Positions 1 to 21,599 of a stretch of DNA of 64,000 nt are shown piece by piece. The first letter of the stretch is position 1; the number at the start of each line of letters is the position of its first letter. Under the pieces are notes generated by a model, which was not told the origin of the DNA, searched no databases, and worked only from the letters and a program-made list of their open reading frames with translations. The stretch covers positions 72,168,001 through 72,232,000 of the forward strand of contig OZ024744.1 of the NCBI GenBank assembly GCA_964016885.1, in the 5' to 3' direction. The DNA comes from Eledone cirrhosa. Lineage: Eukaryota. The translations under genes were made by a program, and so were the position numbers.

Positions 1-3000
1 TTCTCAAGTGTCTCCCCACCCCAGACACCTCCATCCCACCAGACGCCAGCCCACCAAACATCTCCGTCCGCACCCCGCCGGAAACCACCACCAACCCAGA
101 CAACCCCTCCAACAAGGCCAATATAAGAGTTGGATGTGTGAAAGTACGCGTCCTGGGGATGACCTGGAAACGGCAAACTCTTAAACGACCTCAGGTCGCA
201 CAGTATGGATGTGGTAGCCATTTGCGAATCCAGGATCCATAGCGAGCGACAGCTGGCCCCCATCTTCGATGCCTTTGAGATCTACGCATCTCTCTGTCAA
301 CCGGGGGGTGGGGGCGGAGTTGCCGTTTTGCTGCGGAAACACCTGGGCCTCGTAACACAGACGGTACATCTGGACCCGGAGGGTCGACAGTTGGTCCTAG
401 ACGTTGACGGTAGTGAAGGTGGAGCCTTCAGGCTGGTGGCTGCATATGCCCCATCCGGCACACCACGGCCAGACTTCTTCAAACGTCTAGAGACTTTTCT
501 GGGAACGTCCCGCTCCTTGCTTTTAGTAGGGGACTGGAATGGAATCCTAGATGCACGTTGGGAATATGTGGGAGCATGTCCCGATAAAGGGGCGTGTAAC
601 AGCCTCAAACAGTTAATCGACCGATTCGACCTGGCCGATAGATATCGACTAGATTTTCCGACTGTGCCACTGTGGACCTGGAGTAATCGCAGCGGAACAT
701 CTAGATCGTACCTAGATAGGGCTCTAGTTAGAAATAAGGATAGGGACATGTTAAGCTGTCCACAAATGTTCATGGTTACCTATTCAGATCACAAACTAGT
801 GACCTGCATGGCCAACCTTGATAGAACCCATAGACGAGGACCCGGCTACTGGAAGCTGAACTTGTCGTTACCGACAAGCAAAGCCTACAGTAGACGGATT
901 AGCACTTTAGTTAGACAGCACTTGACAGAGGCCATTGTCAACAACAGATGGTGGTACTCTCTCAAGAGGGCAGTTAGATTAGACTCGTTAGTTTTTAGTA
1001 AAGAATTAGCGTTAGATAGAAATAGAACCGAGAAGGAACTTGTAGATAAAGTAGAAGAGGCAATTAGAAGTGGCAACGTAACCAGCGTGCTAGCAACGAG
1101 AACGGCCTTGGACCAGTTCTTCGACGCAAAGAACGAGGGCTGCGTTGTCAGAAGCAAAATACGTGCTCTGGGAAACGAGGGAGCCAAAGCTATTAGCTCG
1201 GCCCGAGTGACGGAGGAAAAAAGTGGCACAAGTCCACGATTCGGTCTTTGAAGGACCAAAACGGACGCGTGATACGTGAGCCGAAGCAGATGTGTGCGTC
1301 CTTTCAGCGGCACTTTGCTCAGCTGTTCGGACGGGGCTATGGATTTCGGTCTATACCTCGACGGCCTACCGCGACTCTCGGACAGCGAGGCAAATTTCTG
1401 CGAAAAGCTGATTTCAGCCGCTGAGATAGGGGACGCGCTGAGCCAATGCGGCAAACACAAATCTCCAAGTCTCGACGGTCTACCCTACGAATTTTACGTA
1501 GCAATGCCGGACTTATTCTCCGGTCTCCTGTAAGCGGTTTACTGCAACTGGCAACAGAACGGAAGAATTCCCAGTTCTGTAACCGGGGCGTAGTAACACT
1601 AGTCAGGAAGGACGAGAATAAGGGGGATGACATAGGCAACTTCCGGCCCATAACTGCTAAACACAGAGTTACAGATTTTGGCCAAGGTGTTGGCATATAG
1701 GCTGGCGTTTGTCGTCGGGAACCTGGTGGGAGAAGCGCAGACATGCGCAATCCCGACCAGGTCCATACACGACAACCTCCACTTCATGTGATACATCATA
1801 GAGAGGGTAGGCTTCGGTTGTGCCCTGATCAACTTGGATCAGTCTAAGGCTTTCGATAGGGTTGACCATCGTTACCTGGATGCGGTGCTCGAGGTGGCAG
1901 GCTTCGGACCCGTGTTCAGGGGCTGGATTGCTGCAATGCACAACAGCAACTTCTGCTCAAGGGTCAAGGTGAACGGCTACCTCTCGGAGCCGTTCCATAT
2001 TACGCGATCCATTCGACAGGAATGCCCTCTCTCCTCTCTTCTGTACGTACTGACTCTCGAGCCACTACAGCGGAAGTTGGAGCTATTGCAGGGCATCCCT
2101 CTGGAACCGGGACTGCGGAAAGCGGCATCGGCCTACGCCGACGACGTGCCAGTAATGGTGTCGAGCGCCTCGCAAATCGAGGAAGTCGGCACCTTACTAA
2201 AGGAATACGAAAGTTTCACAGGAGCAAAGCTGAACCGGGACAAGTCCGTCGGTTTGCAACTCGGATCGTGGAGAGGCAAACCGATGCCTTTCGAAGGCGT
2301 CGTCGGACGCTGGACGGAAGGACCGGTAAAGCTGCTCGGGGCTTGGTTTGGTCCGGACCTCCAGGTGGAGAAGAACTGGAACGAAGGGACGGCCAAGGTG
2401 TTTGCACTCACCCAGAAGTGGGCCGAGTGCAAACTATCCTTGAAAGGTCGAGCGGAGGTGGTGAACACTTTTATAGCGTCCGCCATCTACTACCGCTTGA
2501 CCGTCGTGCCTTGTCCAGCCAAAACGCTCGCCAAAATGGGGCGCGCACTCTTCCAATTCCTTGGAAGAGGCGGGCTCCTTTGGTGAGAAGATCCATCTGC
2601 TGCCAACACCCTTCTAACGGAGGGCTGTCGATGCCGTGGTTGACGATGCGCAAACTCGCGCTCAGGCTGCGGCATCTCTACGTATTCCTCACCGGACAAC
2701 CGGTGTGGGCCCCGTTCGTGAGGCGAGCCTACCCACGACTCGTCTCGCTGACTGAGCTGCAGTCCTGGGTCAAGCAAAGACCGAGGAAAATGGGCGACTG
2801 GCACATCGAATGTGCTCAGGCGCTCACAGCCCACTGGCAGGCGTACCTGGCGATCAGTGGAGACTCCACTTCGTCATTCTATAGAGGGTTGATCCGCAGC
2901 AAGTGCGACGACGCGCTCGGTGAAACTCTAGGCGTAGAGGAAGATGAACTGGCCAGTCTGTTCGGTAGGACCTTCCGCGCGGGACCGATGGACAACTTCC

Positions 3001-3751
3001 AAATGTCCCTGGCCTGGCAGTGCTACCGAGGAGCTCTACCAGTTCGAGACAAGCTCTACAGACATGGGCGCCCGGGCGGGTACCCTGCAAAAAAGATCTG
3101 TCCGAGGTGCGTGCGTAACGAAGAAACCGTCGCGCACGCATTCATACAGTGCCCGGGCGTCACTGACCTGTGGGGCTATGTAGAACGACTATTGTCGCGG
3201 GTGGGACCAATCCAGTTGACCACCGAGTCCATTGTCATGATCAAACCGCCACCCTCCTTCAAAAACGAAGGAGAGGCGGTTTTCCTTTGTGTGATAGCTA
3301 TGGCGAAAGAGGTTGTATGGTGGACAAGGTTGAAAGGGCTGAGGTCAGACACCTTTCTTTCCGGCCAACAACTGATTCTTTTTTTCAAATACCACTTTGG
3401 AAGAAGAATCAGGATTGAGAGAGAGGTACTGTACTCCAGCAAGTTTTATGAAAGGTGGGTGAAAGTGGCGAGAATGGCCCGAGTGAATGGCCCTTCTCTC
3501 TATATCAGCCTGTAGGTTGAGGAAAAGGAGGAGGAGAGAAAAGGAGTACAAACTCTTCGTACTCCTGGAGATGAGGGTTTCACATTTTTTCGGGGGTATG
3601 TGTTACCAATATAAACAGTCTTCCCCTATTGGGGAAAATTGACTAATTTTTAAATTGCATTTGTGATAACATTTTACACGTTTTTATTGTATGTAAACTT
3701 CCCCCTTTGTATTTGTACCCTTCTTTTGTGCCCCTGTGGCTAATGAAGAAA
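1..3751 (+). mobile_element. L1/Tx1-clade non-LTR retrotransposon, near-complete but disabled ORF2 (5' end outside window)
   Basis: APE endonuclease (DVVAICES, YAPSG, GDWN, SYLDR, SDH), RT motifs (KSPSLDGL, FRPIT, DQSKAFDRVDH, IRQECPLS, AYADD) and C-terminal CPRC...H...C finger. 3' UTR ends tgtggctaatgaagaaa followed by (ATCT)n/(CT)n/(TA)n. Confidence 0.95.
119..3515 (+). pseudogene. Tx1-like ORF2 (APE-RT-zinc finger) broken by frameshifts and stops
   Basis: Domain pieces lie in different frames (205-1251, 1276-1533, 1446-1700, 1834-2586, about 2570-3515). Confidence 0.9.
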
Positions 3752-3768
3752 CATATCTATCTATCTAG

Positions 3769-3843
<75 letters not shown>

Positions 3844-5599
3844 TCAAATGTATTTCTTCAACGATATCTCACGTTGGTGGTGTTTGCTAGGTTATGAGTA
3901 AACCACGTGAGACAAATTCCATTTATAACCAACACCGAAGACTGATTACATGCAATGGTTCTTGATTATGTATTTGGTATCGTTGACATAGTCTTATAAC
4001 TTTCATTCTCCGTGTTAATTCCTCTCGCGATTGTATTTCTTCTTTTAGCAGTTTAGCATAGCATAGCGGTTTTTGTTTTATTTTTGTTTTCCTTTTTGTT
4101 TTCTTTTGTATTATTTATTTGCTTTATTTTTATTGGATATTGAAGTGTGAAATTCTTCTCATCATTTACTATTTATTTATTTGTTGTTATGTATTCTTTT
4201 TGTGCAACACAAATCAACTCTTTTTGGGTGTTTTTTCTTCTTAAATTAGTCAATTTTGTGCGGATGCAGAGCATTCGATTTAATCTTTTTATGTACTTGC
4301 ACTAAGTATTATGTCATTATATCACTATTGTTTGTAAACCAACAATTGTATCAATTCGAGATTATAGACACTGCTCTTTCTCTTCTGATTTTCTGATTAA
4401 ACTACAAAAATAACAAGTGCTAATACGATAAAGATGAACATTTAGATATACTAATACGTGTGTTGAAACGAAAATAAAGTAAGTAACTTTTCAGACATAT
4501 TTTTCACCTGTTACTTCCTAGCGATGCTAACCAAGAATGCCTTGCAGGAGTATGTTTTACAATATTAAAAACTGTAGCCAATATTTCTAAGATTGTACAA
4601 AATTAATTGCTGTGGAATTGGTTGATACACTGTTTAACTGATTAGCTAGAAAGATCTTCTGTTGGTTGGTCTAAATAAAACGGATAGTTGCCGTTGCTGG
4701 AATGCCTGTGATCATACGTTTGCTGAGTCGGAACTAGCCTGAGAATACACAGCAACATACACATCGACTCAGAAGTGCGTTTCATCACTACTACAAAAGA
4801 AAATCAACTGAATTTCCGCTATGGAAATATTTACTTTAGAAAATCCAATCACAATAAGATGGAATCTAGGATAATGACTACTTTAGATTTCTCAGTCACA
4901 TAATGCAGGGAAGTAATCCGAGGCTTAAGTCTATTCTGCAGTGATAAAGGCTATTAAAAATAATTGAATTGTAGAAGTGAACGAAAGCACTTTTTCAACA
5001 TCTGACTGCACAGACAGAAGCAGCAGTCGATATATCAGAAGTTGTGAATTAGATTAAATTAGAAATATACATGTAGATTTAATATTTCTTCCACTGTAAA
5101 TCCTCCACATGGATATTCGATGTTTTTAGAGGAGTTCTGATGGGAATATGTCTCAGACCACTCACCAGTGCGGTAGTACTAACATTTTATAGACAAACCC
5201 CTTTTGATTAAACTATTACAAATTAAAAGAAAAACATTTGTGTTGTTATGAACGTCGTTATACCATTAATTTATTTGTCAACAAACACTTTGTCTTTAAT
5301 TAGAGACAAACCCAAGTAGGATACTTTGTAACAGTGTCCTGTTATATTCATGAGATCCAGAAACATTTGAATTCCACATTACTAGCAAAAACCACTGGCG
5401 TTAATTAAATAAATACTTTCGTTACTTGTGACAAAGGGTTAAGCTGTTCGTAGCTATCATGGATATTTATAAAAGTGTCTATTCTACCAACGAGAATCAA
5501 GTATTTTGCCCATAGACAATTACAGCTCAGCTTCCAATTAAATACATCAGCTGCAACTAATATAGATATCAATTTAAAAAAAAATACAATTGTACTTAC

Positions 5600-5703
5600 A
5601 CTTGAATATAACTGAGAAAGATAATTCATGCACAAAAAATAACCAGTCATTCTGGCTTGAATAGCCACAACGGATGCTGCTACTGTGTATAACTGTAGAA
5701 CGG
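5600..5703 (-). CDS. FGF: Internal coding exon of a fibroblast growth factor family gene (middle exon of the FGF core)
   Basis: Minus strand reads ttctattttacAG|CC GTT CTA CAG...TAT TCA AGT|GTAAGT. The exon is exactly 104 bp, phase 1 in and phase 0 out, matching the canonical FGF middle exon. Peptide (x)VLQLYTVAASVVAIQARMTGYFLCMNYLSQLYSS fits the FGF pattern L.I..V..GVVAI.G.....YL.MN..G.LY.S. Subfamily cannot be assigned. Confidence 0.88.
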
Positions 5704-5986
5704 CTGTAAAATAGAAAACAGAATGGGAATGAAAGATAAAGTGAATATTTATACATATCTTTACATAAATACATGCGTAATTATATTTCAATATATATAT
5801 ATATATATAAGTTTGATTAAAACAATAGCAGTGGTCTGGATACGTAAGATCCTGAAAACATCATCAGGTTTGGGATTGCATAATTAGTTAATCAAAAAAG
5901 TAATTACGGCATACACAAACAAAAAAATATAATCAGAAAACATATTTGATTCGAGGACGGCTTGCGATCTAGGTGTCATCATTATC

Positions 5987-6072
<86 letters not shown>

Positions 6073-6227
6073 TGTATACAGCGCACAAGATGCTGCCTGG
6101 GAATCAAGATACCAGATAGAGAGGGAGCTTTAAAGGAACCAAATTATTTACGGTTGACTATTTTCCATTCAGCCAGAGTTGAGTAATTTTTCTTTCGATT
6201 ATCGAATCAATTTCTTTGTCATTATAG

Positions 6228-6389
6228 GGTCGGACGCCATGCTTTCCAGCATAGTTACGTCCCTTTGCGGTCTTAGTTCAAATCCCTCCGAGGTCAACTT
6301 TGCCTTTCATCCTTACGGGGTCGATAAAATAAAGTACCAGTAATGTACTGGGTAATTGATGGCCTTGTGCCAAAAGTAGAAACAATTAT
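6228..6389 (+). mobile_element. tRNA-derived SINE with a Meta-like central domain; representative of about 29 copies
   Basis: B box gagttcaaatccc, core ctttgcctttcatccttacggggtcgataaaataaagtacc, tail gtagaaacaattat. Other copies near 6983-, 8847+, 10380-, 15185-, 15378-, 15488+, 18725-, 19395-, 20605-, 21915-, 22113-, 22315+, 22550+, 24346+, 26748+, 37600-, 37808-, 41368-, 44372+, 44515-, 45058+, 54538+, 59575-, 59748-, 59870+, 60555-, 60940+, 61170+, 62525+. Confidence 0.9.
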
Positions 6390-6956
6390 TAAAACAAGCC
6401 GATTGCTGTACGCCAGGTATTTGAACAGTGGAAACTGGTATGACTTTGTTTGCAAAATCGACATTTGTTTGAACTGGAGAAAGAGTTGTGAACTGGAGCA
6501 AATTGTACTTATATTTTTCTGGTATGTTAGAAGCCAGTCTTATTCTGGTAGCATATCCAGATGATCCCCAAATTGTTAAGCCGAAGCAAATTTACAATAA
6601 GTGTTTTGGTTAAGAATAAATATCGAAGTCATAGCTTAAACCAATTCGCAGATTGTGAAATATTAGAATGTATGTTAGAAATATTTTGTAATTCAAGATG
6701 TATGCAAACGATAAATGTTTTTCAGGGGTAGAAAACTTGCTGCTTTTAGTCCTTTAAACGTAGTCTTGAAGAAGTTTAGATTTTGTATTAAAACTATATC
6801 TTTGTTGTTGGTATATCATTATATTTTTTCAAAGATAGTTATATGTTTACAAAATATCAGTTGATATTTTTATACCTTACTTTAATATTCACAATTACAA
6901 TTTTATTACGAATAATTTTAAAAAAATGATCGCTCTACATGGCTGAATACAATAAA

Positions 6957-7372
6957 TGTAATCTGAGTTTTTCGAATATTAATAATTGTTTCTACTTTAG
7001 GCACAAGGCCAGCAATTACGCAGTGCATTACTGGTACTTTATTTTATCGACCCCGTAAGGATGAAAGGCAAAGTCAACCTCGGCGGGATTTGAACTCAGA
7101 TCGTAAAGGGACGTAACTATGCTGGAAAGCATATTAATAATAATATTCAATTCATTTGCAATTATGCAAACAGCCGCATTTTTAAAGCCATGTCAGTAGA
7201 ATGAGCCCCTCATTCTTGCTCTTGTGTTAGCATGTAAACAGTTCTGTTTATATGCCAACACAAGAGCAAGAATGAGGGGCTAATTCTACTGACATGGCTT
7301 TAAAAAGGAGGCTGTTTGCATAATTGCAAACGAATTGAATATTATCATTAATATTCGAAAAACTCAGATTAC
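6957..7372. mobile_element. Fully palindromic fold-back/MITE-like element with a SINE inserted in its left arm
   Basis: Arms 6957-6986 plus 7142-7240 versus 7245-7372. Apex aaacag-tt-ctgttt. The SINE is flanked by an ATATTAATAAT duplication. Confidence 0.85.
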
Positions 7373-8059
7373 AATTTTATTACATTTTTATTATCAATAT
7401 AATTACATTTTGCCATATAGTATATTTAATATAATACTCATTAATGCGTTCTTATTAAATTATATTTAATTCAGTTAGACCTTCAAATGTAAAAGATATC
7501 CCGCCTTTGTTCTAATCACTAGGAGTAGTTTCATGGTGTTAAACTGTGACATATAGATTCTGTACACTGCACGTGCACTACTCTAGACAAAACGTGCGTC
7601 TATTTTATGCCTCACAAACGTATTCAACATGATCTCTAATCTAGCAGTTTAGTGAAAAATAAATTAAACTAACTAGAGGTATTTACTCTGAATAGCTCTG
7701 AGGAACCATTTGAGCGTTTTCTTTTCCAACCTACAAAAAAAAATGTAGTTAAAACTTCCTCTAATAATAATATACTGGTTAATCTCTAATTGTGAATTTA
7801 ATATTCCAGAAAAGAAGACTTTTCCTGCATTTATAAAGATATGTGTGTTGCAAAGCCTGCAAAAAAAAAAGGAAAAATAAAAATACTCACACACACAGAC
7901 AAGAACACCAACAACAAAATTCTAAAATAATCCGGTAAATGCACGTCTTTACAGCGAAAATATTAACACTGAGAGCAACACAATTATTAAAGAACTACTG
8001 CCGCTATTATCTCCACATATACATCATTTAAAAGTAAACGATTTATATACAAACAATTA

Positions 8060-8260
8060 TAAAGTTTGTAAACATGATACAAAAGATCTAAAATTTGGGC
8101 ACTAACCTCATTTAAACAACTTTCATGAAAATAATAGATTTTATAATCAGTCACGATATTCATGTAGCAATAATTCAGGAAACATTGTTACTACCAGAAA
8201 TAGAACATCTACCAAAATATTTTCCAAAATATTTTCAAATCAGTCTAGATAAACACTTCT
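8060..8260 (+). mobile_element. Degraded LINE APE endonuclease N-terminus
   Basis: IIDFIISHDIHVAIIQETLL resembles APE motif II. Confidence 0.5.
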
Positions 8261-8384
8261 ATAACGGGGTTAGTTTTGTAAGTAAAATGTATGAAAAAAT
8301 GCATTTTGAATATAGATATTAAAAAAATGACATTCATAAACTAATATGAATCAATATTATTCAAGAACTGCGCAATTTCACTTT

Positions 8385-8765
8385 AAAAGGTAACCCACAT
8401 TGCTGCACATGGACTGAGGAGGGTAAACTTTCCAAGTATCAGTCGCTACCCTCTCCGACAGGTTTGCAGTCGAGCCCCTAGCAGTGGAGACTTCTGGTGC
8501 CCTTGGCCCTAGGGATACCTCCCTACTCACCACCGTAGGTGCTGAGCTGGATAGCGGCAGGTGTGAGCCATGCGAGATGGAATGGCTCTTCCAGTGCGTC
8601 TTCCTTACCATCCTCCGAGAAACGCCTTCTGTCCGCCGGGGCCGTGGAGCGGCCAGCACGTGGGACCCCATTTACTCATAATAGATGGGGACGGTGAGAG
8701 AGATGGAGGCAATGACAGTGGGAGTTCGGCTCCTCTGTGTTCGGACCTGGTAAAAAGCTTTACAA
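8385..8765 (+). mobile_element. CRE-like retrotransposon 3' fragment (restriction-like endonuclease C-terminus)
   Basis: EEGKLSKY...FAVEPLAVETSGALGP...EMEWLFQCVFLTILRE; homologous to 61600-62045. Confidence 0.75.
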
Positions 8766-9083
8766 CATGAGTAGCCCTAAATATTTATTCGGATTGTCTC
8801 TCTTTATGACTATACCTCTTATTATTATTTAAACATTGGTGGCAAGGATCGGACGCCATGCTTTCTAGCATAGTTACGTATCTTTACGTTCTGAGTTCAA
8901 ATCCCGCCGAGATTAAACTTTGCCTTTCATCCTTACGGGGTCGATAAAATAAAGTACCAGTAATGTACTGGATAATTGCTGGCCTTGTGCCAAATGTAGA
9001 AACAATTATTTAAACATTGTTCAAAACTATACATTATTTTGTTTCTTTTGTCGATAAAAACTAACTACACGAATAACATTGAT

Positions 9084-9120
<37 letters not shown>

Positions 9121-9178
9121 CCGAAAAAACTATATATTTTTTGCCTGTTTCAAAGTTCAACAGTAGGAAGAGAAAACC

Positions 9179-9222
9179 ATTGTCCTGATGGGTATCATTG
9201 AAGTTCGAAATGCATAGACAAT
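9179..9222 (+). ncRNA. Degenerate minimal hammerhead
   Basis: ATTGTC-CTGATGg-...-c-GAAA-TGCA-TA-GACAAT. Stem I is 6 bp and stem III is palindromic, but A9 and stem II are eroded. Confidence 0.55.
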
Positions 9223-9555
9223 TATCCCCCTTGCTTCTGCTGGACTCCGATAGATGAGGCTTTCAAAATGTTTATTTATTAAACATACCCTATATATTTA
9301 AATATACGAGACTCACGTGAATATATATATATATATATTTCTTTATATCACGTTCTGTGATTTGCAAATTTGTTGTATCATGCTGGAGTTTTTGTGACGA
9401 AACAAATACACTACGTGTTGAATTAATTATGTAATCTATCATAACTTTAAGACTGGCTGCAAAGCGCGGAAGAACACGTGATTATTACATTATTTCGATT
9501 TGATGGTGTGTGTGACGAAGAAGGCATTGAAACTTTAATAGTCTAATACATTTAA

Positions 9556-9776
9556 CCCTTTAGTATTTACATTACTCCTTATTTGCTATTGTATTTTCGC
9601 TGTAAACGCTTTATCTCACATAGTTATTTCACATAATATCACATATATGAGATTTTGATATTATTTATTTTGAGAACAATACCTTAACGTCAGTTTGAGG
9701 AGCCTGTTACTGCCAATGTGAACAGAAAGTGGTGAGAGAATGTTGGCTGGATATGGCTGGTTTAAATGCTAACGGG
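9556..9776. mobile_element. piggyBac-like MITE
   Basis: TTAA|CCCTTTAGTATTTA ... TAAATGCTAACGGG|TTGA. Confidence 0.7.
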
Positions 9777-10027
9777 TTGAGTGAATTATTTCAAACTGAA
9801 TATTGAAGTCTAACAAGGAAATATGATAAGTCCTTAATAAACAGATTAAACTGGAACACTTTATTTCACGTTGCTCCAGTTCACTCAGATCTAGAAATAA
9901 GTTACGACGTTACGATTAGCTTTTCACAAAATCATCTTGCCTGAGCTTCTGCCTCAGAGAGGAACCTTTTAGGTGCAAATACCATGGTCATACATGACCG
10001 AAGGGGGTCCTTCTCTCTCTCTTTCTC

Positions 10028-10112
<85 letters not shown>

Positions 10113-10744
10113 TAGTGAGAGAGCGAGAGAGAGATGTTACATTTTTTCGTATGTATTCCCATCTATTCTTTGTTTAGTCATCGTCTCGCATACATCATAC
10201 CAACAAAGTGGGTTCCGATCTGCTGCACATACTACCATTACAAGTGCAGTACTACCTTAATGAGTGAAACTGCATTTTCAGTAAGGTGGCTGACGAAGTA
10301 TCGAAGCATTTGTTTATTCATGTTATGTAATCGTAATATAATATAATATAATATAATATATATATATATATATATTATATAACTGTTTCTACTTTAGGCA
10401 CAAGGCCAGCAATTATCCAGTGCATTACTGGTACTTTATTTTATCGACCACCGTAAGGAGGAAAGGCAAAGTCAACCTCGGCGGGATTTGAACTCAGATC
10501 GTAAAGGGACGTAACTATGCTGGAAAGCATGGCGTCCGACCCTCTACCGATACTGCCAATCCACCGCCAATCCATCGCCCTTATATATATTATATAACGG
10601 CGATGAATTAGTTTTGCGAGGTTTTTGATATGAAATCGTGTGTCGAAACAAATATTGTTAAACAAGCCAATTATAAACGTAAACATGTAAGTATGTTTTT
10701 GAAACGGTGCGCGAGGTTGAAATTAGAAATTAGAAATTATAAGC

Positions 10745-10960
10745 TTTCACCGTATTTTAGACTAAAGAAATTTCTAGCCTGATAGCCTTTTTCCATTTCT
10801 CCGAGGGTTATAAACCCCACTATCAGGCTAGAAATTTCTTTAGTCTAAAATACGGTGAAAAATATTGTTATACTTGGGGAGGGTCATATTTGTATAATAT
10901 TGAGTATGTTCTGTTATTAATTCTGGCAATATTACACAAATATGACCCTCCCCAAGTATA
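10745..10960. repeat. Two adjacent hairpins, the second resembling the PLE terminus
   Basis: Perfect arms of about 40 bp at 10745-10785 and 10820-10860. Then tatacttgggagggtcatatttg versus caaatatgaccctccccaagtata. Confidence 0.8.
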
Positions 10961-10971
10961 TATATATATAT

Positions 10972-11158
10972 AGGAGCGAAGTGATCAGACAGAAGTCCGG
11001 CGTGAGGGACGTCATTACGGAATATTAGCGCAGCAAGTTCAGATGGGCTGGACACGTCGCCCGGTTCACCGATAATCGGTGGACCCGCGCAGTTGCCGAG
11101 TGGTACCCGCGCGAGCGGAAAGGACCACTCGGAAGGCCTCCACAAGGGTGGAGTTACG
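10972..11158 (+). mobile_element. RTE-1-like LINE C-terminal fragment
   Basis: [10 protein letters not shown]...[36 protein letters not shown]. Confidence 0.85.
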
Positions 11159-11161
11159 ATA

Positions 11162-11319
<158 letters not shown>

Positions 11320-11514
11320 TAAATTAAATTAAATTTGTCGATCGACTTTCGTCAAATCAGACCGAGGAAACAATGCTTCCGTTGGTCTTTCCAATTGCTA
11401 TTACTATCTCTCGGTCGCAACTACAGGTAGAAGGAGCAACGTGAAATAAAGTGTCTTGCTCAAGGACATAGCGCATCACCCGGTCCAAGAATCGAACTGA
11501 CAACCTCACGATTG

Positions 11515-11580
<66 letters not shown>

Positions 11581-11636
11581 CATGCATCCATGCAACCATA
11601 CATACACACGTACATACATACACACATACACATACA

Positions 11637-11694
<58 letters not shown>

Positions 11695-11923
11695 GTGACC
11701 AAGTGGATATAAGTTGCACACGTACAGGGACAAATTATTTCAAGATCATTAAATGGCACACACAAATGCAGACACATATACCAACATGGACACACGTACA
11801 CACATACATTCGCATACTTATTTTACTTTATTTCTATTTATTTTTCTTAAGATAATTTCGGGAACTTCGATCTCAGGTTTAAAACACAGCCTTCGATAAA
11901 AGATTATCATATTATCATCAACG

Positions 11924-11959
<36 letters not shown>

Positions 11960-12108
11960 CCACTACCGCCACCATCATCATTACCACCACTATCAACATC
12001 ATTATCAACATCATCATCATCATCATCATCATCATCACCACTACTATCATCGCCACCACCACTATCATCACCGTCATCATAATCATCATCACCACCACCA
12101 CCACCACC

Positions 12109-12163
<55 letters not shown>

Positions 12164-12827
12164 CTACCATCCCCATTATGATCATCATTTAACTACAACA
12201 ACTGCAATAACAATAACAATAATTAGTACAATCACCTTTACCGCAAGTGAATATCAATGAGGCCTATGTAGGGCGCTTGACTTGCTAGAAATAGCAGTCT
12301 GGTTTGAGGCGTCGCTGCATATGTAGACTTTATTCTTGAGATAGCACTATAAGAGGATTTCAGGAGCGGGCAAACACCAAACATACGAGAAGCCGTTCAC
12401 AATTGTTCCTCTACGTCCTACACAGCTGTCAGAAGAACACTTATTTCACCGTGCTCTTGTGATGTTAAGACAACGAGGCAAGGCCCCATTCGTTAAAAAA
12501 TGTGTCACTATCAGTAAATGTAAAGATTAATAGGTCAACTGTTAACATTTGGAGATATCGATCATCATTTAAGGTTTAATTACAAAAGAAATCAGATTTA
12601 TAACTAACTCAAACTTTTTGTTACAGTTTCATGAGGGTTATTCATGAGGGTTATAACTCTTGTGGGTTTGGATTTGAATGTAATCGATTATTGTAACAAC
12701 AATACATTACTGGTAATTATCAGAGGGAGCTGGCGGGGTGAGTTGAAATGGAAATGTCACAATATTTGGTATATTGAAGAAGAAGAAGAAGAAGAAGAAG
12801 AAGAAGAAGAAGAAGAAGAAGAAGAAG

Positions 12828-12859
<32 letters not shown>

Positions 12860-12872
12860 GATAGATAGATAG

Positions 12873-14972
12873 ATTTCTTTATTTGCCACAAGGGCGCACA
12901 AGAAAAGGGGACAATACAAAGATACATGCCGGGGATTTTACATACAGTCGTGTTAAAATATTATTAAAACAAACAAATTTAACAATCGAAATCCCCAATA
13001 GAGGGAGGCGTTACAAATGGATTCTTTAATACCCCGTCGATAGAACAACCTTCAACTCCAGGAGCGTATTGTGCAAGTGCTCCTTTCTTCCTTTTGCTCT
13101 CTTCTTCAATCTACAGGCTTATATACAGAGAAGATCCAATCACTCGGGCCATTTTTGCTACATTCACCCACCTTTCAGTAAATTTACTGGGGTGCAGTGC
13201 CTCTCTCTCCACTCTGATTCTCCTTCTAAAGTGGTATCTAAAGAAGGGAATGAGTTGTTGTCCGGAGAGAAAGGCATCTGTCCTCAGTCCTCTCAATCCC
13301 GTCCACCATATAACCTCTTTGACCATAGCCACTACACAGAGGAAAACCGCCTCTTTCGTTTTTGAAAGAAGTTGCCGTTTGATCCTTACTGTGGACTCGG
13401 CAGTCAACTGGATTTGTCCCATAGGCGACAGCAATTGTTCTGCATAGTTCCACAGGTCGGTTACGCATGGGCAGTGTACAATTGCTTGCAAGACGGTTTC
13501 AATGTCCTGCTCGCATCTTGGACACGTCTTCTTGGAAGGATCCCTGTCGGGGAAATCTAGTCGATACATATCGGCCAGTTGGAATTGGCCGATTAAATTT
13601 TTGAGGCTGTTGCACACCCTCTACTGGGACATGTCCCTACATAGTCCCAACGTGCGTCTAGGATATCATTCCAACATTTCAATAGGACGCGGTTTATGGG
13701 TTTTTGGCAGGGGTTTCCGACGTTCTGCGAAAATTGTCCTTTAGTTTCTAGTAGGTTTCCATCGAAACCCTTATCAGTTTTAGGTGTGGTGCAGAGTCTG
13801 ACTTGACAAAGGTTTCCCCCTCAGTTTCTTTTTTGGGGTCTTGGGAGATGACCTTCATCAGGTTTTTGTTGTTTGTGTTAATGTATGAGTATTGTTTTTT
13901 TTGTTTTTTTTTTGTTGTTCATTTTGTAGTTTTCTTTTTATGGTGGACATTTATGTTTGGGGTGGTGTTGGTGTTTGTTTTGCTGGTAGAGGGGGGTGAT
14001 TGTGGTGGTCTTTGTGTTGTTGTTTGTGTTGGTGGTTGTGTGATTGTGTTGGTGGTTGGTGTTTTTGTGGCTTTGCGGTTTCTCTTTTTTTGTTTTTTTA
14101 TTTCCGAGGCTCTCCTTCATCTTCACTTGGGGATGGAGAAGTAGCCTCGTCATCAGGGGCGTGTGGTGTTGTGTGGTGATGGTGTGTTGTGTGGTGATGG
14201 TGTGTTTGTGTGTGTGATTGGTAGTGTTGGATGGAGTGGGATGGGGTGGGACTGTGTTTTTCAGGGGAATTGTTTTTGTTTTTTCTGTTGTTTGTGGTTG
14301 AGCAGTTGTTTGTTTTTTGTATGTTTCCTTGTTTTGTGTGTTGTTGTTGTTGTGGTTTTGGTGTTGGTAAAAGTACATTTGGAGGGGGGGTCGTAAGAGG
14401 GGACTGGAGGCCTTTAAATGCGATGTGCTTGCGCATTTAAAATAATGTGGCCTCCAACCTTCTGCCGAAATGTGTATATAGTTTGTATTTTCTACTGGCA
14501 CACTTTCTGGTATCTTGGAAATTCTGTCCGGTTTCATTTGGACCAAAATTTCCAAGCTTGTGCCGTTCCAGGTGTTTCTTGTGGATTTTTGAATCGACAG
14601 TATTGTGTCTTCATCCTCCTCCAAGAACCCTGCCAGAATACACCAGATGTTAATGTTGAGTGGTATGTTTGAAATGTTTATTTTTTGTGTCCTTTTTCCC
14701 ATGTATGTAGGGAAAAAGGTGTGTGTGGCAGAGGTGACCGGGGTCACTGAGTATTTTTTCGCAAGGGCCTCACTTTTGAAGAGTACCGAAATGCTTCCAT
14801 ATAGTTTATTGATCATTTCCTTCGCATTGGAAATATCAATATTTGTAAAACTTCCTTTACTTATTGTGGCAAAAGATTGTTTATGGTTGTTGTTGTTGTT
14901 GTCATTGTTGTCGTTGCTGTTGTTGTTTTGTTGTTCTCAATTGCTTGATTTGTGGTTGTGGAGTTCATTTGT
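12873..14972 (-). mobile_element. Internally deleted Tx1-like element (ORF1 plus APE remnant fused to the ORF2 C-terminus, no RT)
   Basis: ORF1-like 14970-13938 with a degenerate knuckle (HYFKCASTSHLKASSP). 13617-13111 is homologous to both the APE (CNSLKNLIGQFQLADMYRLDFP) and the C-terminus (CPRC...MARVIGSSLYISL) of the 1-3751 copy. Same 3' end (tgtggcaaataaagaaa). GATA repeats on both sides. Confidence 0.9.
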
Positions 14973-16003
14973 GATAGATAGATAGAGAGATAGATAGCTG
15001 TGTGTGTATATGCATACATACAAGTGGTGGCGAGGAGAGAAACCGTAGAATAGTGAGAAGATAGAGAGCAGTAGAAATAGTGAAGACGGACAGGTGAGAA
15101 TATGCTGAGAGTGTGAGAAACGGAGAGAGAAAGAGAAAGATAGAGAGTGAGAGAGAGAGGGGGTGGGTGCAACTTGACGTATATAATTGTCTCTACTTTT
15201 GTCACGAGGCCAGCAATTATCCCAGTGCATTACTGGTACTTTATTTTATCGACCCCCGTAAGGATTAAAGACAAGGTTAACTTCGGCGAGATTTGAACTC
15301 AGAACGTAAAGGGCCGTAACTCTATGCTGTAGAGCATTGTATCTGACGATCTACCGATACTGCCAATTCAACGTCTTATATAATTGTGTCTACTTTTGGA
15401 ACAAGGCCAGCAATTATCCCAGTGTATTACTGGTACTTTATTGTATCGCCCCCTGTAAGGATGAAAGGCAAAGTTAACCTCGGCGGGATTAACTTTGCCT
15501 TTCATCCTTACAGGGTCGATAAAATAAAGTACCAGTAATACACTGGGATAATTGCTGGCACTGTGACAAAAGTAGAACAGTCTTATATAATACGCATCAT
15601 AATCTATTATGTATGTGCACCACTCTCTTTCGTTGAATAACATTTGTTTTTAAAAAAATCTCTTTTGTTAGCTGGAAACACTTCTTCAACGAATCATTTT
15701 GACATTTGCTAATTAATCTAAATTATTTTGATAGTTGGTTTGTATGTTAGAAGTTGGGCGGAACAATCCGACATTGGCGGCAACCCAAAGATATCAAATA
15801 AGGCATATTTTACTTGCTATTGTACGCTTTATATTGATTTATTAACGTTTAAATTTATAAGACAGGTAAAACGAAAAAATGTATGACGAAATGAGATTAT
15901 AGGCTGTTGTTGTTGTTGTTGATGATATTGTTGTCGTCGTCGTCGTTGTTGTTGTTGCTGTTGTCGTCGTTGTTGTTGTTGTTGTCGTTGCTGTTGTTGT
16001 TGC

Positions 16004-16047
<44 letters not shown>

Positions 16048-16048
16048 C

Positions 16049-16081
<33 letters not shown>

Positions 16082-16253
16082 AATGCTACTGATGCTCTTG
16101 GTGGGTGTTATTTTCAAATTATTATTGGTGTTGTTTTCTTTAACTTCAGACCATACCCTGATCTAGCAGGTTTTTAATCAAAACAATTTCAGTATTAATA
16201 GAATATTGGCTTCCTCTCATAAATATATATGTATATATATATATGTGTGTGTA

Positions 16254-16316
<63 letters not shown>

Positions 16317-17610
16317 CTTAAAGATATCTCAAATGAAATACACCAGAAAGACAGTCCGTCTGTATTTCTATTTATTTTTGCCATTCTCTTACGTAAAACC
16401 AGTGGTTTTGTGTAAGAGTCTACAATAGCAAGTGATACCAATATAAATCATAATTTCTTTCTTGACGATGTTTAGTGGAAAATATGCACACACCATGCTA
16501 AGAAACAATTGTATTTATTAATATATTCAGCTGATAATGGGATGAAATTTATTCAAAAGAAAGTTGCTTATATTTCATAACTGAAGGCGAATAAACGGCT
16601 TCCCAAGCCGAAAACCTTTATAAAAGTTGTCTATCTCTTCTATTTTCATAGCACGTGCGTAACCAATACCTAGTTATTGACGAAAATATATCATACAACC
16701 TGTTATGAATAACGATAGAACTATATAAAAAAAAATATAGCAGTCGCGAAATTTTCTCTTACATAAAGGCAATATTTCAAAAAGCAATTGCATTACCGGT
16801 ATTAATACCAACATTTGGGATCCTTGATAAGATAATCATATTGCATACAAAAATGCCTAGGTGTGTTTTGTAGTAAACTTAAGGATAAAAGTAGATGTGA
16901 GAGGACGTGTAGCCTCTTTTAATTTGTGACTGTTTCGTAATGGTTTTGTACTTCAAAAACATGAGATAAATACATAATACCTAATGAACAAAAGAGATAG
17001 CGAAACTTTTAATCTGCAAAGATGTAACCTAAAATGTAAATTACGTGACATTTACTTTGAAGTCCTTGCACACATGATCTGCAGCTGTCTAAAGATGTCA
17101 TGACAATACTATTTTTCAATGCGGCATTAGATTGTTTCTAAAACAATATACATTGCTATCGGTAGGAAATACTGCCCTGGGATAATGATAAAAAATATTT
17201 CTGGTGTTGAATACGTACATACGTAACAATATAAGAAACATTGGTGGAATATTCCCGTCAAAATGTCTACGAAATGCAAACATAGCCGGCCTAATAAATT
17301 TGTTTATGCCAGAAAAGTAAATTTATACGAAATTAAAGAGATCAGCTGTCCTAAAAATATGAACATTTCTTTCAAAATAAGTGACAAAGGTAATATGTAA
17401 GAACAACGGCTTTAAAAGGTACAATTTCTGCAATCAGATTACAAATCACATATAAACCTACAATTATTGGTACTTGTGACTGTGTTATTAAAGTTTCCCA
17501 GTGGGGCTGGTTTATGGCCTGTTGTGTAAATGTGGAGTGAAAAATTAATGCTTGAGCACAACTTGGAGATAAAAATGATGATGACGATTGTGGCGACAAT
17601 AATAGTAATA

Positions 17611-18500
17611 AGTTCTTTATTGGCCACAAGTGTGCTTAATGAAATGATATAAAGACAAATTGTAAAAAACAATAGAGAATTAGATAGAATCTAAAACAGT
17701 GATATACAAAAGAAACGAAATAAGACGTCTTGGTGTTTGGGGAGCTCCCTCGGATCTATCAATGTTCACTAGAAATCAAGAATTATCGCCACTACCAAGG
17801 ACAAATGCTCTTTTCTTGCTATCTTCTTCGTCCTACAATCACATATTACATGTCAACACATCCACCCACGTCATATCTCGGCATTCTCACCTACCTTTCA
17901 ACAAAGTCCCTAGATAACAGCCCCGTCTCCACCTTAACCAATCTCCCTCAGTGGAACTGATAGATGTTGATGAGGGTTTAGTAGAAGGAAACTTTCAGCC
18001 CTGAGTTTTGGTAATCTAGTTTATTATAACATTTATTTCACTATAGGCCTCTCTCGAAGGAAATTTATTTGGCCTACAGGACTCAATCCTCTCGAATGGT
18101 TCAGTGGATATCTAGATCTGCTTTATATGCGACACCAGCCCCTTCGGTATAACTTCACAAGTCAGCAATGTTTCTATCACTGTGCCTGTAGTGTTTATCT
18201 GGAACACCTGATCCAATTCCTCGTAGTAGTACCATGACATAAATTTCTGGAAGTTGTCCAGAGATCCCGACGAAAATACAACCGGAATTGGCTATTCAGT
18301 TGATATTCATCACCTCCCATATTACTACCACAAGAACATCACCAGGCTTGCCTGTATAAGAATGAAAGTGTGGACACACCATTGGCCACATTACTTGAGT
18401 TCTAGAGAACTGTGAAACCTTCACAATATTGTATGCACCAGGTGCATAACAATTGATAACGAAATCGATTATTGCGTCAACAAACATTTTAATGGTAATG
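17611..18500 (-). mobile_element. Old degraded Tx1-like remnant
   Basis: 3' end cttgtggccaataaagaac. Minus-strand traces GSLDNFQKFMSW (compare GPMDNFQMSLAW) and FVINCYAPGA (compare FRLVAAYAPSG). Confidence 0.7.
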
Positions 18501-18951
18501 ACGACAGAAAAATGTAACTCGCTAACTCTCGCGGCGGATTGATTTTTCATTTTGATTCTAAAGTTGCATTTCGTGGTTATTTTTTATTTTAAAAATTAAG
18601 TTGCGGTTAGTGATGGTGATTTTGGAATTTTTATTTGTTATTTCTATTTATTATAATAATTCGTATTTGTTAGTTGAAAAGTTAGACTTGACAAGTATAT
18701 AACCATTTCACCCAATCACCCGTCAAGAAACTGGTACTTTATTTATCGACGCCGAAAAAGATGAACGTCACTGTTGACTTCGGTCGGATTTGAACTCACA
18801 GTGGAGGGAGATGGTTCAAATACCGGGATTCTAATTGATTCTGCCAATTACACCATAATTTTTTACTTACTTATATGTGAACCTCTACGTAGTTATATAA
18901 ATTATTTGCACGTTTATTGCATTGATGTACACATAAAGAGAGCCTCTACGT

Positions 18952-19264
18952 GAGTGGTTCCCAACCTTTTGTGTACCATGCCCCACCTCAACCCCCCTTG
19001 ACAGCAATGATCAATTGCAATGAAAACAGCAATGATCAATTTCAAAGTGTAAACAAATTTGTATATAAGTGGTGCCAAATGCACAATAACATATGGAGGA
19101 GTTGAGACAGGAGTTTCTGACAGTAATGTGTACCAAGTTGCGTTGGTGTAAAAGTAATAAAGTAAAACCTGAGGTTTGTTCTCATTAACATCATTTTCCA
19201 ATGGCCCCCTTAAATATTCAAATTGATCCCCTGTAGGGTGTACTCCCCATGTTGGGAATCACTG
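18952..19264. mobile_element. hAT (Charlie-like) MITE
   Basis: TIRs gAGTGGTTCCCAAC / GTTGGGAATCACTG; 8-bp flanks ctctacgt / gtctccgt. Confidence 0.7.
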
Positions 19265-19780
19265 GTCTCCGTGTTTGGTCAACTGCTAGGAATAGCAATA
19301 GAATACAAATCACAGCCTAGTCTCTTAAAAAAAAAAATGACGAATACATTGGATTACACATCCCTAACTCCTAAATACTATCTAAAAACAAATAATGTTT
19401 TCTACTATAGGCACAAGGTCAGCAATTTGGGGGGAGGGGAAAGTCGATTAAATCGACCCCAGTGCGCGACTGGTACTTTATTTTAACGAACGCGTAAGGA
19501 TGAAAGGCAAAGTTAACCTCAGCGAGATTTGAACTCTAAAAAAAACAAAAAAACAACAACAAATGATAACAAAACAACGGGATTTTATGAGTTGAACGCA
19601 TTTGATCACAAATTGAAATAGAATTACTAAATATTGACAAATTATATACATTCATTTGTGTATGGGTGTTTGTGTGTCCGTGTTTAATTAATTAAATATT
19701 TAATCGTAAGAATGCATGTGCAAGTATAAATGCCTGTGTGATGTGTGTGTGTATGTGAATATATATATATATATATATAT

Positions 19781-19973
19781 AACGAAGGAAATGTGGTAAG
19801 GAACCAGGTGGACCATAACGCACCAAAGTACTCAATACTTAGGGTAGTAGAGTGGGTAATAGGAATGAGTAGGACCCCGACGGCTGAGCTCAAGCCGTTT
19901 CGACGGCTAATTCTGGTCCAGAATTAGCCGTCGAAACGGCTTGAGCTCAGCCGTCGGGGTCCTACTCGTTCCT
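19781..19973. mobile_element. Fold-back mini-element family A in (TA)n; other copies at 23749-23971, 33191-33333, 38385-38575, 40949-41110, 42290-42338, 53470-53527, 56418-56539
   Basis: Shared sequence gaattagccgtcGAAACggcttgagctcag...tattgagtactttggtgcgttatggtccacctggttccttaccacatttccttcgtt. Four copies carry an inverted partial duplicate. Confidence 0.85.
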
Positions 19974-20434
19974 ATATATATATATATACACATATATATA
20001 TGTATGTATATATATATATATATTTACAACAGTGACACATAAATAGGTACATAAGTTTCGTTGGGTTCTGGACCCTAACTCATTCAGTCTAGTGAAGTAG
20101 TACACACACTGACACACACACACACACACACACACACACGCCCCCCCCCCCCCTCTGTCCCACCACACCACCACACACACACATATACAAACACACTAAC
20201 AGACTAACACACACACACACTGAAATATAGTTTCAGACAGTTACAATCTGTCTAGCCTATGTCAGTGTGGAAAAGACAGTGGGGTCCAGAACCTAAGGAA
20301 AGTTAAGTACCACTTTATGTCACTCATGTAATTATTTATACTAAACTCGTTCTATTGGATATTTCTACCAAACGTTTACTACAGTGTATACATATATAAT
20401 ATATAGATGGGTGTTCTGTGTGTGTGTGTGAATG

Positions 20435-20468
<34 letters not shown>

Positions 20469-21072
20469 AGTGTGTCAGTGTGTCTGTGTGTGTGTCCGCG
20501 TGTGTATGTATGTGTGCGTTCATCTGTGTGCGCGTACGTGTGTGTGTGTGTAGTGTATATAATATTAAACACAAAAATAAAGTTCAGCACACATATACAG
20601 TAAAAATAATTGTTTCTACTTTTGGAACAAGGCCAGCAATTACCCCAGTACATTACTGGTACTTTATTTTACATTACTGGTACTTTATCGACCCCGTAAG
20701 GATGAAAGGCAAAGTTAACCTCGGTGGGGTTTGAACTCAGATCGTAAAGGGACGTAACTCTTTGCATCAAAGCATGGCGTCCATAATGTTAATAGCTGCT
20801 GATCATGAGAGCGAAATATTTCTGAAGTAAAATAAAAGAAAAGGTGGCCATTTTCTTTTTGTTTTTAATTTCGCACACATGTTTGACGATATTAATAAAC
20901 ACATACACACAAGCTTACACACAGATACACACATTCTTTTCTACTCTCTCTCTCTCTTTCTTTCTCTCTCAATCTCTCTCTCACTCTCACTCTCACTCTC
21001 TCTCTCTCTCGCTCTCTCTCTCTCTCTCCCATCTCCCACCAACCTAATTTCTGTTTGTTTATTTTTCTTTGT

Positions 21073-21262
<190 letters not shown>

Positions 21263-21277
21263 GTGTATATATATATG

Positions 21278-21351
<74 letters not shown>

Positions 21352-21599
21352 GTGTTTATATTTACATTAAATAAAGCTTTCTTACTCTACAACAGAACAG
21401 AGGAGCTCAGTTATGTTATAATTTGAATGGAAGAATATAGAATATATCCAGAATGTTGGGTGGGACACACTATATATATATATATGTGTGTGTGTTTATG
21501 CGTGCGCCATATGTAAGTGCGTGTGTGTGTGTGTGTGTGCGTGCGTATGTGTATATATATGTTTATATGTATATATATACTTCCACCATCGCCACCAAT

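What the first reader, a model, noticed from the sequence alone, without database searches (positions are those of the whole stretch)
5600..5703. Hidden FGF exon stranded in TE-rich DNA
Seen: strong acceptor and GTAAGT donor around an exactly 104-bp exon whose peptide fits the FGF core. Known: the 104-bp phase 1/0 middle exon is conserved across animal FGFs. The normally invariant Gly of MNxxGxLY is Ser (TCT, which A-to-I editing cannot convert to Gly), and a Cys sits in YFLCMN as in the FGF8/17/18 and FGF19/21/23 groups. Inference: a divergent invertebrate FGF with very large introns. I could not find the flanking core exons in this window.
Basis: partly seen in the sequence, partly recalled or inferred. 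Interest (0 to 1): 0.7.

Follow-up and report, generated by a model that had tools for sequence, protein, structure and literature searches.

The report
Middle exon of an octopus FGF
This 104-base piece is the real, spliced middle exon of an intact octopus fibroblast growth factor gene spread over about 319,000 bases and already annotated in other octopuses; the protein is likely a secreted growth signal of an ordinary kind, and its odd glycine-to-serine change is an old trait shared with limpets.

Summary
Confirmed, on the minus strand. Window 5703→5600 is a 104-nt, phase 1/0 exon (TTTTACAG / GTAAGT) whose peptide hits Pfam FGF (E 4.5e-5). It is not stranded: exon 3 begins about 4.3 kb left of the window (intron 9,870 nt) and exon 1 lies about 308 kb to the right (intron about 307,846 nt, one assembly gap), so the rest of the window is intron. 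Contigs of public runs join exon 1→2→3 at these junctions. The 301-aa product is 35/35 identical over this exon to proteins already annotated in Octopus vulgaris and O. bimaculoides ('FGF20', 'FGF3-like'). The Gly→Ser is genomic, kept in transcripts and shared with limpet orthologues; 145 of 148 other FGFs have Gly and 3 have Ser. The Cys is not an FGF8/19 mark (35 of 148). Best matches are FGF9/20, and another FGF8/18-like locus exists on C2, but trees leave the subfamily open and place the mollusc clade beside ascidian 'FGF3/7/10/22'. Likely a signal-peptide-less, ER-routed, disulfide-braced paracrine FGF with a basic tail. Ordinary; low interest.

The parts
5600..5703 (-). Coding exon 2 of 3 of an FGF gene (104 nt, phase 1 in, phase 0 out; residues 67-101 of a 301-aa protein; predicted strands at residues 68-75, 78-83, 89-92, 98-101)
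   Evidence: contigs of X1 and X2 lie on exactly 5600-5704 and run on into exon 3 and exon 1
5704..5723 (-). Splice acceptor (pyrimidine tract and CAG) closing intron 1
   Evidence: loose ends begin here in X1, X2
5594..5599 (-). Splice donor GTAAGT opening intron 2
   Evidence: loose ends at 5600 in X1, X2, X9 equal the start of exon 3
5615..5617 (-). Ser96 codon (TCT) at the column that is Gly in 145 of 148 related FGFs
   Evidence: X9 contig covers it with 0 other letters
5630..5632 (-). Cys91 codon; 17 residues before the conserved Cys108 of exon 3, likely disulfide partner
   Evidence: the bond itself is inferred
1..5599 (-). Part of intron 2 (9,870 nt). Exon 3 lies outside the window at G000:C28:72163729-72163127 (603 nt with stop), about 4.3 kb left of window base 1
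5704..64000 (-). Part of intron 1 (about 307,846 nt, with one 200-N assembly gap). Exon 1 coding part lies outside the window at G000:C28:72481748-72481550 (199 nt from the ATG)

Best explanation
This is the spliced middle exon of an intact three-exon octopod FGF gene whose 301-residue product likely acts as a secreted, paracrine FGF most like the FGF9/16/20 type. Shown: the three exons join in frame, contigs of public runs carry both junctions, substitutions against a related organism are mostly silent, and orthologues exist in other cephalopods and in limpets. Predicted: residues 36-164 fold as an FGF beta-trefoil. Inferred: with no N-terminal signal peptide, the hydrophobic stretch that this exon encodes (residues 65-83, at the place of the FGF9/LET-756 'EFISIA' motif) would act as an uncleaved signal for entry into the ER; the protein would be N-glycosylated (NGT at 54) and close a Cys91-Cys108 disulfide; that brace would help the hairpin tolerate Ser for Gly at 96; the Thr/Ser-rich linker and very basic tail (34 K/R in the last 60 residues) would hold it on heparan sulfate near its source and may double as a nuclear signal. 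The huge first intron reflects retroelement and microsatellite load in a 3-Gb genome.
For: Exons and phases: 199+104+603 nt, one stop at the end. Junctions: X1, X2 join 1-2-3, X9 joins 2-3; X2, X3, X4 join 1-2. Selection: 12 of 16 listed exon-1 coding changes silent against 0.236 expected, P 2e-5; both listed exon-2 changes silent; upstream of the ATG all 3 affected in-frame codons change residue. Orthologues: 35/35 identity over exon 2 to O. vulgaris and O. bimaculoides proteins, 34/35 to an unnamed more distant protein P0007; Patella and Lottia proteins share Cys, Ser, lack of a hydrophobic N-terminus and a basic tail and form one clade with it (95/81 in 54 rows, 96/91 in 26 rows, 93/82 without the hairpin columns). 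Fold: pLDDT 91-97 over residues 41-180, best Foldseek match FGF9 1g82, E 1.5e-14 (model of the O. vulgaris orthologue). Sequence: mollusc profile scores FGF9 115, FGF20 107, FGF13 94, FGF7 90, FGF1 81 bits. The genome has other loci best matching FGF18/8 (C2, E 2.2e-5) and FGF1-like chains (C17), which with this gene fits the three-gene protostome set suggested in PMC3420111 (passages). Internal-signal secretion of FGF16/FGF9/LET-756: PMC12392149 and bioRxiv 2024.08.30.610304 (passages).
Against: Trees do not place the mollusc clade with FGF9/16/20: it sits beside ascidian 'FGF3/7/10/22' in all three IQ-TREE runs (93/79, 85/88, 93/91; never starred), and holding it with FGF9/16/20 gives p-AU 0.045 (LG+G4) and 0.094 (mixture model), with LET-756-like rows added 0.147 and 0.061. 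The EFISIA motif is not literally kept (QLYTVA, 1 of 6 identical). The hydrophobic stretch is not diagnostic: FGF3-like and FGF11-14-like rows score 1.35 and 1.31 against 1.86 here, and the Patella protein has a polar insert there. No secretion, glycosylation, disulfide or receptor binding was tested. The runs are marked 'RNA?' or '?', so transcription is read from joined exons in contigs, not from recorded RNA libraries. The link between disulfide and Ser tolerance is a guess: 34 of the 35 other rows with the Cys keep Gly, and 2 of the 3 with Ser lack the Cys.
Confidence: 0.68

Rival explanations
1. Same real gene, but the protein works mainly inside the cell (nuclear or cytosolic, like FGF11-14 or the nuclear pool of LET-756), or leaves by a non-classical FGF1/2-like route; the basic tail is chiefly a nuclear or nucleolar signal.
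For: No hydrophobic N-terminus in any of the 5 mollusc proteins measured (best 11-residue hydropathy 0.64-1.28); 34 K/R in the last 60 residues; LET-756 is described as both nuclear and secreted (PMC1513213, start of abstract in the listing).
Against: A Cys pair at the spacing of a potential disulfide and 4 N-glycosylation sequons, with PNGT kept in 4 of 5 mollusc proteins, suit ER passage; FGF11-14 form their own 100/100 clade apart from it.
Confidence: 0.2
2. Same real gene, but by descent it belongs with ascidian 'FGF3/7/10/22' rather than with FGF9/16/20.
For: Sister to the ascidian rows, also after dropping the 7 hairpin columns (93/91); 2 Ciona rows share the Ser; NCBI names include 'FGF3-like' for O. 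bimaculoides and Patella vulgata.
Against: Support never reaches the star threshold; all these branches are long; the ascidian rows themselves do not join vertebrate FGF3/7/10/22 in these trees, and forcing all together gives p-AU 0.053; similarity favours FGF9/20 by 17-25 bits over FGF7; only 137-144 columns.
Confidence: 0.12
3. An orphan or pseudogenic exon, or a chance AG..GT box, left in transposon-rich DNA.
For: The exon alone scores under Pfam's cut-off and E 0.337 genome-wide; the Gly is lost.
Against: In-frame flanking exons, joined contigs in runs of two studies, silent-biased changes, 34-35 of 35 identity in other cephalopod-type proteins.
Confidence: 0.01

Closest known systems
Octopus vulgaris CAI9734346.1 ('Fibroblast growth factor 20'), O. 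bimaculoides XP_014788753.1 ('FGF3-like'), O. sinensis XP_029654774.1 ('protein let-756-like')
   Same: Orthologues: exon 1 63-64/66, exon 2 35/35, exon 3 core 62-63/64 identical for the first two; same start, same Ser and Cys
   Different: Tail 117-118/136 identical; the O. sinensis model starts inside exon 2; the alternative first exon of O. bimaculoides isoform X1 was not found in this locus
Limpet FGF (Patella XP_050417861.1 'FGF3', KAK6173401.1; Lottia LOTGIDRAFT_158297)
   Same: One clade with it; Cys and Ser at the same columns, no hydrophobic N-terminus, basic Cys-bearing tail
   Different: About 30% identity overall; 10/35 over exon 2 to Patella, which has an insert in the hydrophobic stretch
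Vertebrate FGF9/16/20 and nematode LET-756
   Same: Best sequence and fold matches; no cleavable signal peptide; hydrophobic stretch at the EFISIA position; LET-756-like rows also have the Cys and a long basic tail
   Different: About 32-34% identity; EFISIA reads QLYTVA; vertebrate members have Gly or Ala where this has Cys91 and keep the Gly where this has Ser96; monophyly not recovered
FGF8/17/18 and FGF19/21/23
   Same: Cys in the LCM motif (seen in the FGF8-like rows P0018, P0048; for FGF19/21/23 recalled)
   Different: None among the 60 best PDB rows shown; an FGF18/8-like locus exists separately on C2; N-terminal signal peptide, typical of them (recalled), is absent here

Membership tests
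FGF family (PF00167) | FGF core domain above the curated cut-off | tested here: met
   Exon 3 alone 52.6 bits against cut-off 24; exon 2 23.9 bits; orthologue carries PF00167. Exon 1 alone gave no family
FGF family (PF00167) | Beta-trefoil fold | tested here: met
   AlphaFold2 model of the O. vulgaris orthologue with a 100-row alignment; Foldseek 1g82 E 1.5e-14, TM 0.83 by target. A prediction, and the alignment is made of FGFs
FGF family (PF00167) | Two introns inside the core, short middle exon | tested here: met
   Phases 1 and 0 around 104 nt; the C17 paralogue has the same acceptor position with an in-phase donor at 104 or 101 nt; two ancestral core introns per bioRxiv 2024.08.30.610304 (passages). 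That 104 nt is the general animal length is recalled
FGF family (PF00167) | Binds and activates an FGFR with heparan sulfate | not testable with these tools
   No assay; no complex prediction was run
FGF9/16/20 subfamily | Best similarity to FGF9/16/20 | tested here: met
   115 and 107 bits for FGF9 and FGF20 against 94 for the next natural FGF; same order
FGF9/16/20 subfamily | One clade with FGF9/16/20 in a tree | tested here: inconclusive
   Not recovered; p-AU 0.045 and 0.094, with LET-756-like rows 0.147 and 0.061
FGF9/16/20 subfamily | No cleavable N-terminal signal peptide | tested here: met
   Hydropathy only (max 0.64 over 11 residues); no signal-peptide predictor was available; region upstream of the ATG does not behave as coding
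FGF9/16/20 subfamily | Internal EFISIA-type hydrophobic secretion motif | tested here: inconclusive
   Reads QLYTVA; the stretch is the protein's hydropathy peak (1.86) but other subfamilies reach 1.3 there
FGF9/16/20 subfamily | Conserved gene neighbourhood (linkage to a DHHC palmitoyltransferase gene; recalled from vertebrates) | tested here: inconclusive
   1 of 19 DHHC matches is on C28, about 46 Mb away; uninformative
FGF8/17/18 subfamily | Best similarity and N-terminal signal peptide | tested here: not met
   Absent from the 60 best PDB rows; no hydrophobic N-terminus. The tree test with a single FGF8-like row did not reject it (p-AU 0.174)
FGF19/21/23 subfamily | Best similarity; signal peptide; Klotho-binding tail with weak heparan binding (recalled) | tested here: not met
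   Absent from the 60 best PDB rows; tail is strongly basic. No FGF19/21/23 row was in the trees
FGF3/7/10/22 group | One clade with vertebrate FGF3/7/10/22 | tested here: inconclusive
   Sister to ascidian rows only; all together p-AU 0.053

The most novel reading that the evidence does not exclude
The mollusc gene is not FGF9/16/20 but the protostome counterpart of ascidian 'FGF3/7/10/22': an FGF lineage from the bilaterian ancestor, so far counted as absent from protostomes, marked by loss of the hairpin glycine and, in molluscs, rebuilt with a disulfide, an internal secretion signal and a polybasic tail.
Probability: 0.12. Interest if true: 0.5.

Novelty: new member of a known kind. Interest (0 to 1): 0.2.

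Why it matters
Modest. It gives a correct model for one of only three FGF loci found in this octopod genome, a gene that annotation can truncate because its first intron is about 308 kb (two database entries of the orthologue start inside exon 2). FGF ligands of cephalopods have had little study (in the listing, papers on cephalopod development mention FGF 1-3 times), so the gene is a ready probe for arm, brain and regeneration work. The natural Gly→Ser at the position where human FGF10 G138E causes ALSG (PMC2626586, passage; equivalence of the position rests on the alignment plus recalled numbering) is a small structure-function lead. If the ascidian link held, the count of FGF subfamilies in the bilaterian ancestor would change.

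Tried and rejected
Plus-strand reading: stop codon in the frame tried. Exon 1 inside the window: no match by DNA pattern with 3 mismatches, by peptide scan or by tblastn over C28:72158001-72492000, which finds each exon once. First genome-wide pattern hit on C1 (L006): taken as chance, not followed. A-to-I editing or assembly error at the Ser: the X9 contig matches 5600-5691 with 0 differences and all orthologues have Ser; contigs drop rare variants. An upstream non-AUG start (ATT in good context) adding a signal-peptide-like stretch: rejected, since all 3 affected upstream codons change residue against organism A and orthologues start at the same Met; the ATT itself could not be checked in the contigs. 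A splice acceptor just upstream of the ATG: rejected, contigs run through it to L007:1719-1758. Alternative first exon of O. bimaculoides isoform X1: no match at score 28 or more in the window and L008-L027; best 30 of a self score of 91 in L028-L034. Unusual conservation of exon 2 (34/35 against 73/95 in the rest of the core, P 0.008): a vertebrate FGF9-type pair shows the same pattern (33/35), so not special. DHHC linkage test uninformative. Lottia protein as a query against the own genome found nothing, which shows nothing. No RNA holder on record was listed. ESM Atlas gave only generic FGF clusters. Homologue searches reached no bivalve or other gastropod orthologue, a limit of the word index. 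Earlier findings of the scan: none. Two papers on the FGF1 Ala66Cys disulfide and on FGF10 G138E function were not held; PMC7703086 (passages) only names the Ala66Cys variant and cites a title on a vestigial disulfide. Trees: 7 of 152 rows dropped as short cores; 54 and 26 of 145 rows used; subfamily labels rest partly on names and partly on recalled motifs. Supplementary trees of PMC8180254 and PMC3420111 were not read and may already place a mollusc orthologue.

Full report
Observation. The feature is on the minus strand. Window 5703 to 5600 is 104 nt, flanked by a pyrimidine tract ending in TTTTACAG and by GTAAGT; after two bases that finish a split codon it reads 34 codons without a stop. 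The peptide hits only Pfam FGF (profile 35-67, 23.9 bits, E 4.5e-5, cut-off 24), and its 5 PDB matches are all FGFs, though weak. Of 108 open 104-nt AG..GT boxes in the window it is the only one with strong sites under a filter set after the fact. Genome-wide the exon alone is not significant (E 0.337).

The rest of the gene. The window is G000:C28:72168001-72232000 of a 3.0-Gb genome. The FGF profile found the C-terminal exon at C28:72163550-72163732, minus strand, E 4.1e-11, just left of the window; it starts after TTGCAG in phase 0 and runs 200 codons to a stop. Contigs from runs X1 and X2 lay on exactly 5600-5704 and went on, on the left, into the first bases of this exon; X9 did the same on the left with no difference over 5600-5691. 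The right-hand loose end was absent from the window and found once in the genome, at C28:72481558, ending at G|GTAAGT. Laying runs there gave the reverse junction in X2, X3 and X4 (3 of 4 runs; X9 covered the exon's middle only). Exons of 199, 104 and 603 nt join into 301 codons and a stop; introns are 307,846 and 9,870 nt and the coding span is 318,622 nt. Intron 1 holds one 200-N gap, so its length is approximate; tblastn over the 334 kb fetched finds each exon once. The runs are not on record as RNA, so expression is read from exon-joined contigs of two studies. All of the window outside 5600-5703 is therefore intron: 20% tandem repeats, with a LINE-type endonuclease and reverse transcriptase at 163-2583 (2 of 10 ORFs scanned hit Pfam) and further RT-related remnants in the intron beyond the window (3 of 8 ORFs).

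It is a working gene. Against organism A, 12 of 16 listed coding changes in exon 1 are silent (expected share 0.236, P 2e-5) and both listed changes in exon 2 are silent; the tables leave out differences near contig ends. Upstream of the ATG all 3 affected in-frame codons change residue, which supports this ATG as the start. The orthologue is annotated in Octopus vulgaris ('FGF20'), O. bimaculoides ('FGF3-like') and O. sinensis ('let-756-like'); identity over exon 2 is 35/35 to the first two and 34/35 to an unnamed, more distant protein P0007. The window is thus octopod by inference.

The two odd residues. In an alignment of 148 other FGF representatives the Ser96 column is Gly in 145 and Ser in 3; the Cys91 column is Ala 86, Cys 35, Gly 24, Ser 3 (these are the best hits, a set rich in vertebrate FGF9 and FGF11-14 types). 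The three Ser rows are a Patella protein and two Ciona proteins. Patella and Lottia proteins have both Cys and Ser and group with the cephalopod rows (95/81, 96/91, and 93/82 without the hairpin columns). So the Ser likely dates to the common ancestor of limpets and cephalopods; no bivalve or chiton row was reached. The Cys rows include Trichinella, Caenorhabditis, beetle, millipede, scorpion, shrimp and amphioxus proteins, so it is no mark of FGF8 or FGF19 groups. Cys91 and Cys108 are 17 apart, as are the matching Ala and Cys in FGF1-like rows; that this pair forms a disulfide in FGF8/19/23 and in engineered FGF1 Ala66Cys is recalled (PMC7703086 names the variant and cites a title on a vestigial disulfide; passages). 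Whether the bond explains the Ser is weakly supported: 34 of the 35 Cys rows keep Gly and the 2 Ciona Ser rows lack the Cys.

Protein anatomy. The AlphaFold2 model of the O. vulgaris orthologue has pLDDT 91-97 over residues 41-180, and Foldseek ranks FGF9 first (E 1.5e-14). There is no hydrophobic N-terminus; the most hydrophobic 19 residues are 65-83, 17 of them encoded by this exon; sequons lie at 54, 132, 149 and 184; a Thr/Ser-rich linker leads to a tail with 34 K/R in 60 residues and 4 Cys. FGF16, FGF9 and LET-756 are described as secreted through the ER by an internal EFISIA motif without a cleaved signal (PMC12392149; bioRxiv 2024.08.30.610304; passages); here that position reads QLYTVA. 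The stretch scores 1.86 against 1.34-1.79 for two vertebrate FGF9-type rows and 1.22-1.72 for two LET-756-like rows, but FGF3-like and FGF11-14-like rows reach 1.35 and 1.31, so it fits without being diagnostic.

Subfamily. Similarity points to FGF9/16/20 (115 and 107 bits against 94, 90 and 81 for FGF13, FGF7 and FGF1; no FGF8/18/19/21/23 among the 60 rows shown). The two other FGF loci found in the genome match FGF18/8 best (C2) and FGF1-type chains (C17), which with this gene would give the set FGF1/2, FGF8/17/18 and FGF9/16/20 that PMC3420111 suggests for the protostome ancestor; that paper also could not place the two Lottia FGFs, one of which had FGF20 as its best hit (passages). Brachiopods and a phoronid have one FGF9/16/20 and one FGF8/17/18 (PMC8180254, passages). 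My trees do not confirm it: the backbone is open, the mollusc clade sits beside ascidian 'FGF3/7/10/22' (93/79, 85/88, 93/91, never starred), and AU tests give p 0.045 and 0.094 for molluscs with FGF9/16/20, 0.147 and 0.061 with LET-756-like rows added, 0.174 with the one FGF8-like row and 0.053 with all FGF3/7/10/22 rows. It is filed as an FGF that works most like FGF9/16/20, with membership unproven.

Novelty. The gene is in databases under three different automatic names. I found no paper on it or on the mollusc Cys/Ser signature in the searches (listings only; CC-licensed PMC and bioRxiv); supplements were not read. No earlier finding of the scan bears on it. How unusual a 308-kb intron is for an octopod was not measured (one search gave listings only); the C17 paralogue's second intron is about 1 kb.

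Verdict. Real, well supported and ordinary: new member of a known kind, interest 0.2. The boldest reading left open, a protostome counterpart of ascidian FGF3/7/10/22, has about 0.12.

Noticed in passing
window 163-2583 (+), probably on to about 3500: Frameshifted non-LTR retroelement inside intron 2, antisense to the FGF gene: endonuclease (PF03372, E 1.5e-12) and RT (PF00078, E 9.9e-14). Related copies appear in L011, L018, L019, L030.
   Followed up: partly
window 51413-53249 (-): Two adjacent ORFs (411 and 204 aa) that look by eye like a Penelope-type retroelement remnant; no Pfam hit at E 0.01, so the label is recalled resemblance only.
   Followed up: partly
window 62713-64000: 19-bp minisatellite, 67.8 copies at 94% match, running off the window's end.
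   Followed up: no
window 60916-61396: Tandem pair of a 232-bp unit, 79% match, resembling a SINE-like repeat that recurs through the region.
   Followed up: no
G000:C17:23693276-23691946 (-), L002/L003: Second FGF gene with the usual Gly (FNSKG), middle exon of 104 or 101 nt and a second intron of about 1 kb; its last exon matches FGF1-type chains best. First exon not sought.
   Followed up: partly
G000:C2:290946876-290947025 (-), L005: Third FGF locus, weak against Pfam (E 2 genome-wide) but best matching FGF18 and FGF8 in the PDB (E 2.2e-5, 0.0053): likely the FGF8/17/18 orthologue.
   Followed up: partly
window 5600-5703 against L007:1493-1691: Against organism A, exon 2 differs at 2 of 104 bases and exon 1 coding at about 18 of 199 (P 0.016); could reflect splicing signals needed to define a small exon behind a 308-kb intron, or base composition.
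   Followed up: partly
L007:1736-1692 (-): An in-frame ATT in a Kozak-like context precedes a short hydrophobic stretch upstream of the ATG; substitutions there argue against coding use.
   Followed up: yes
P0096 (Penaeus): A shrimp FGF has a similar layout (Cys in LCM, Thr-rich linker, basic Cys-bearing tail) but a signal-peptide-like N-terminus; it fell near the mollusc clade with low support (83/70).
   Followed up: no
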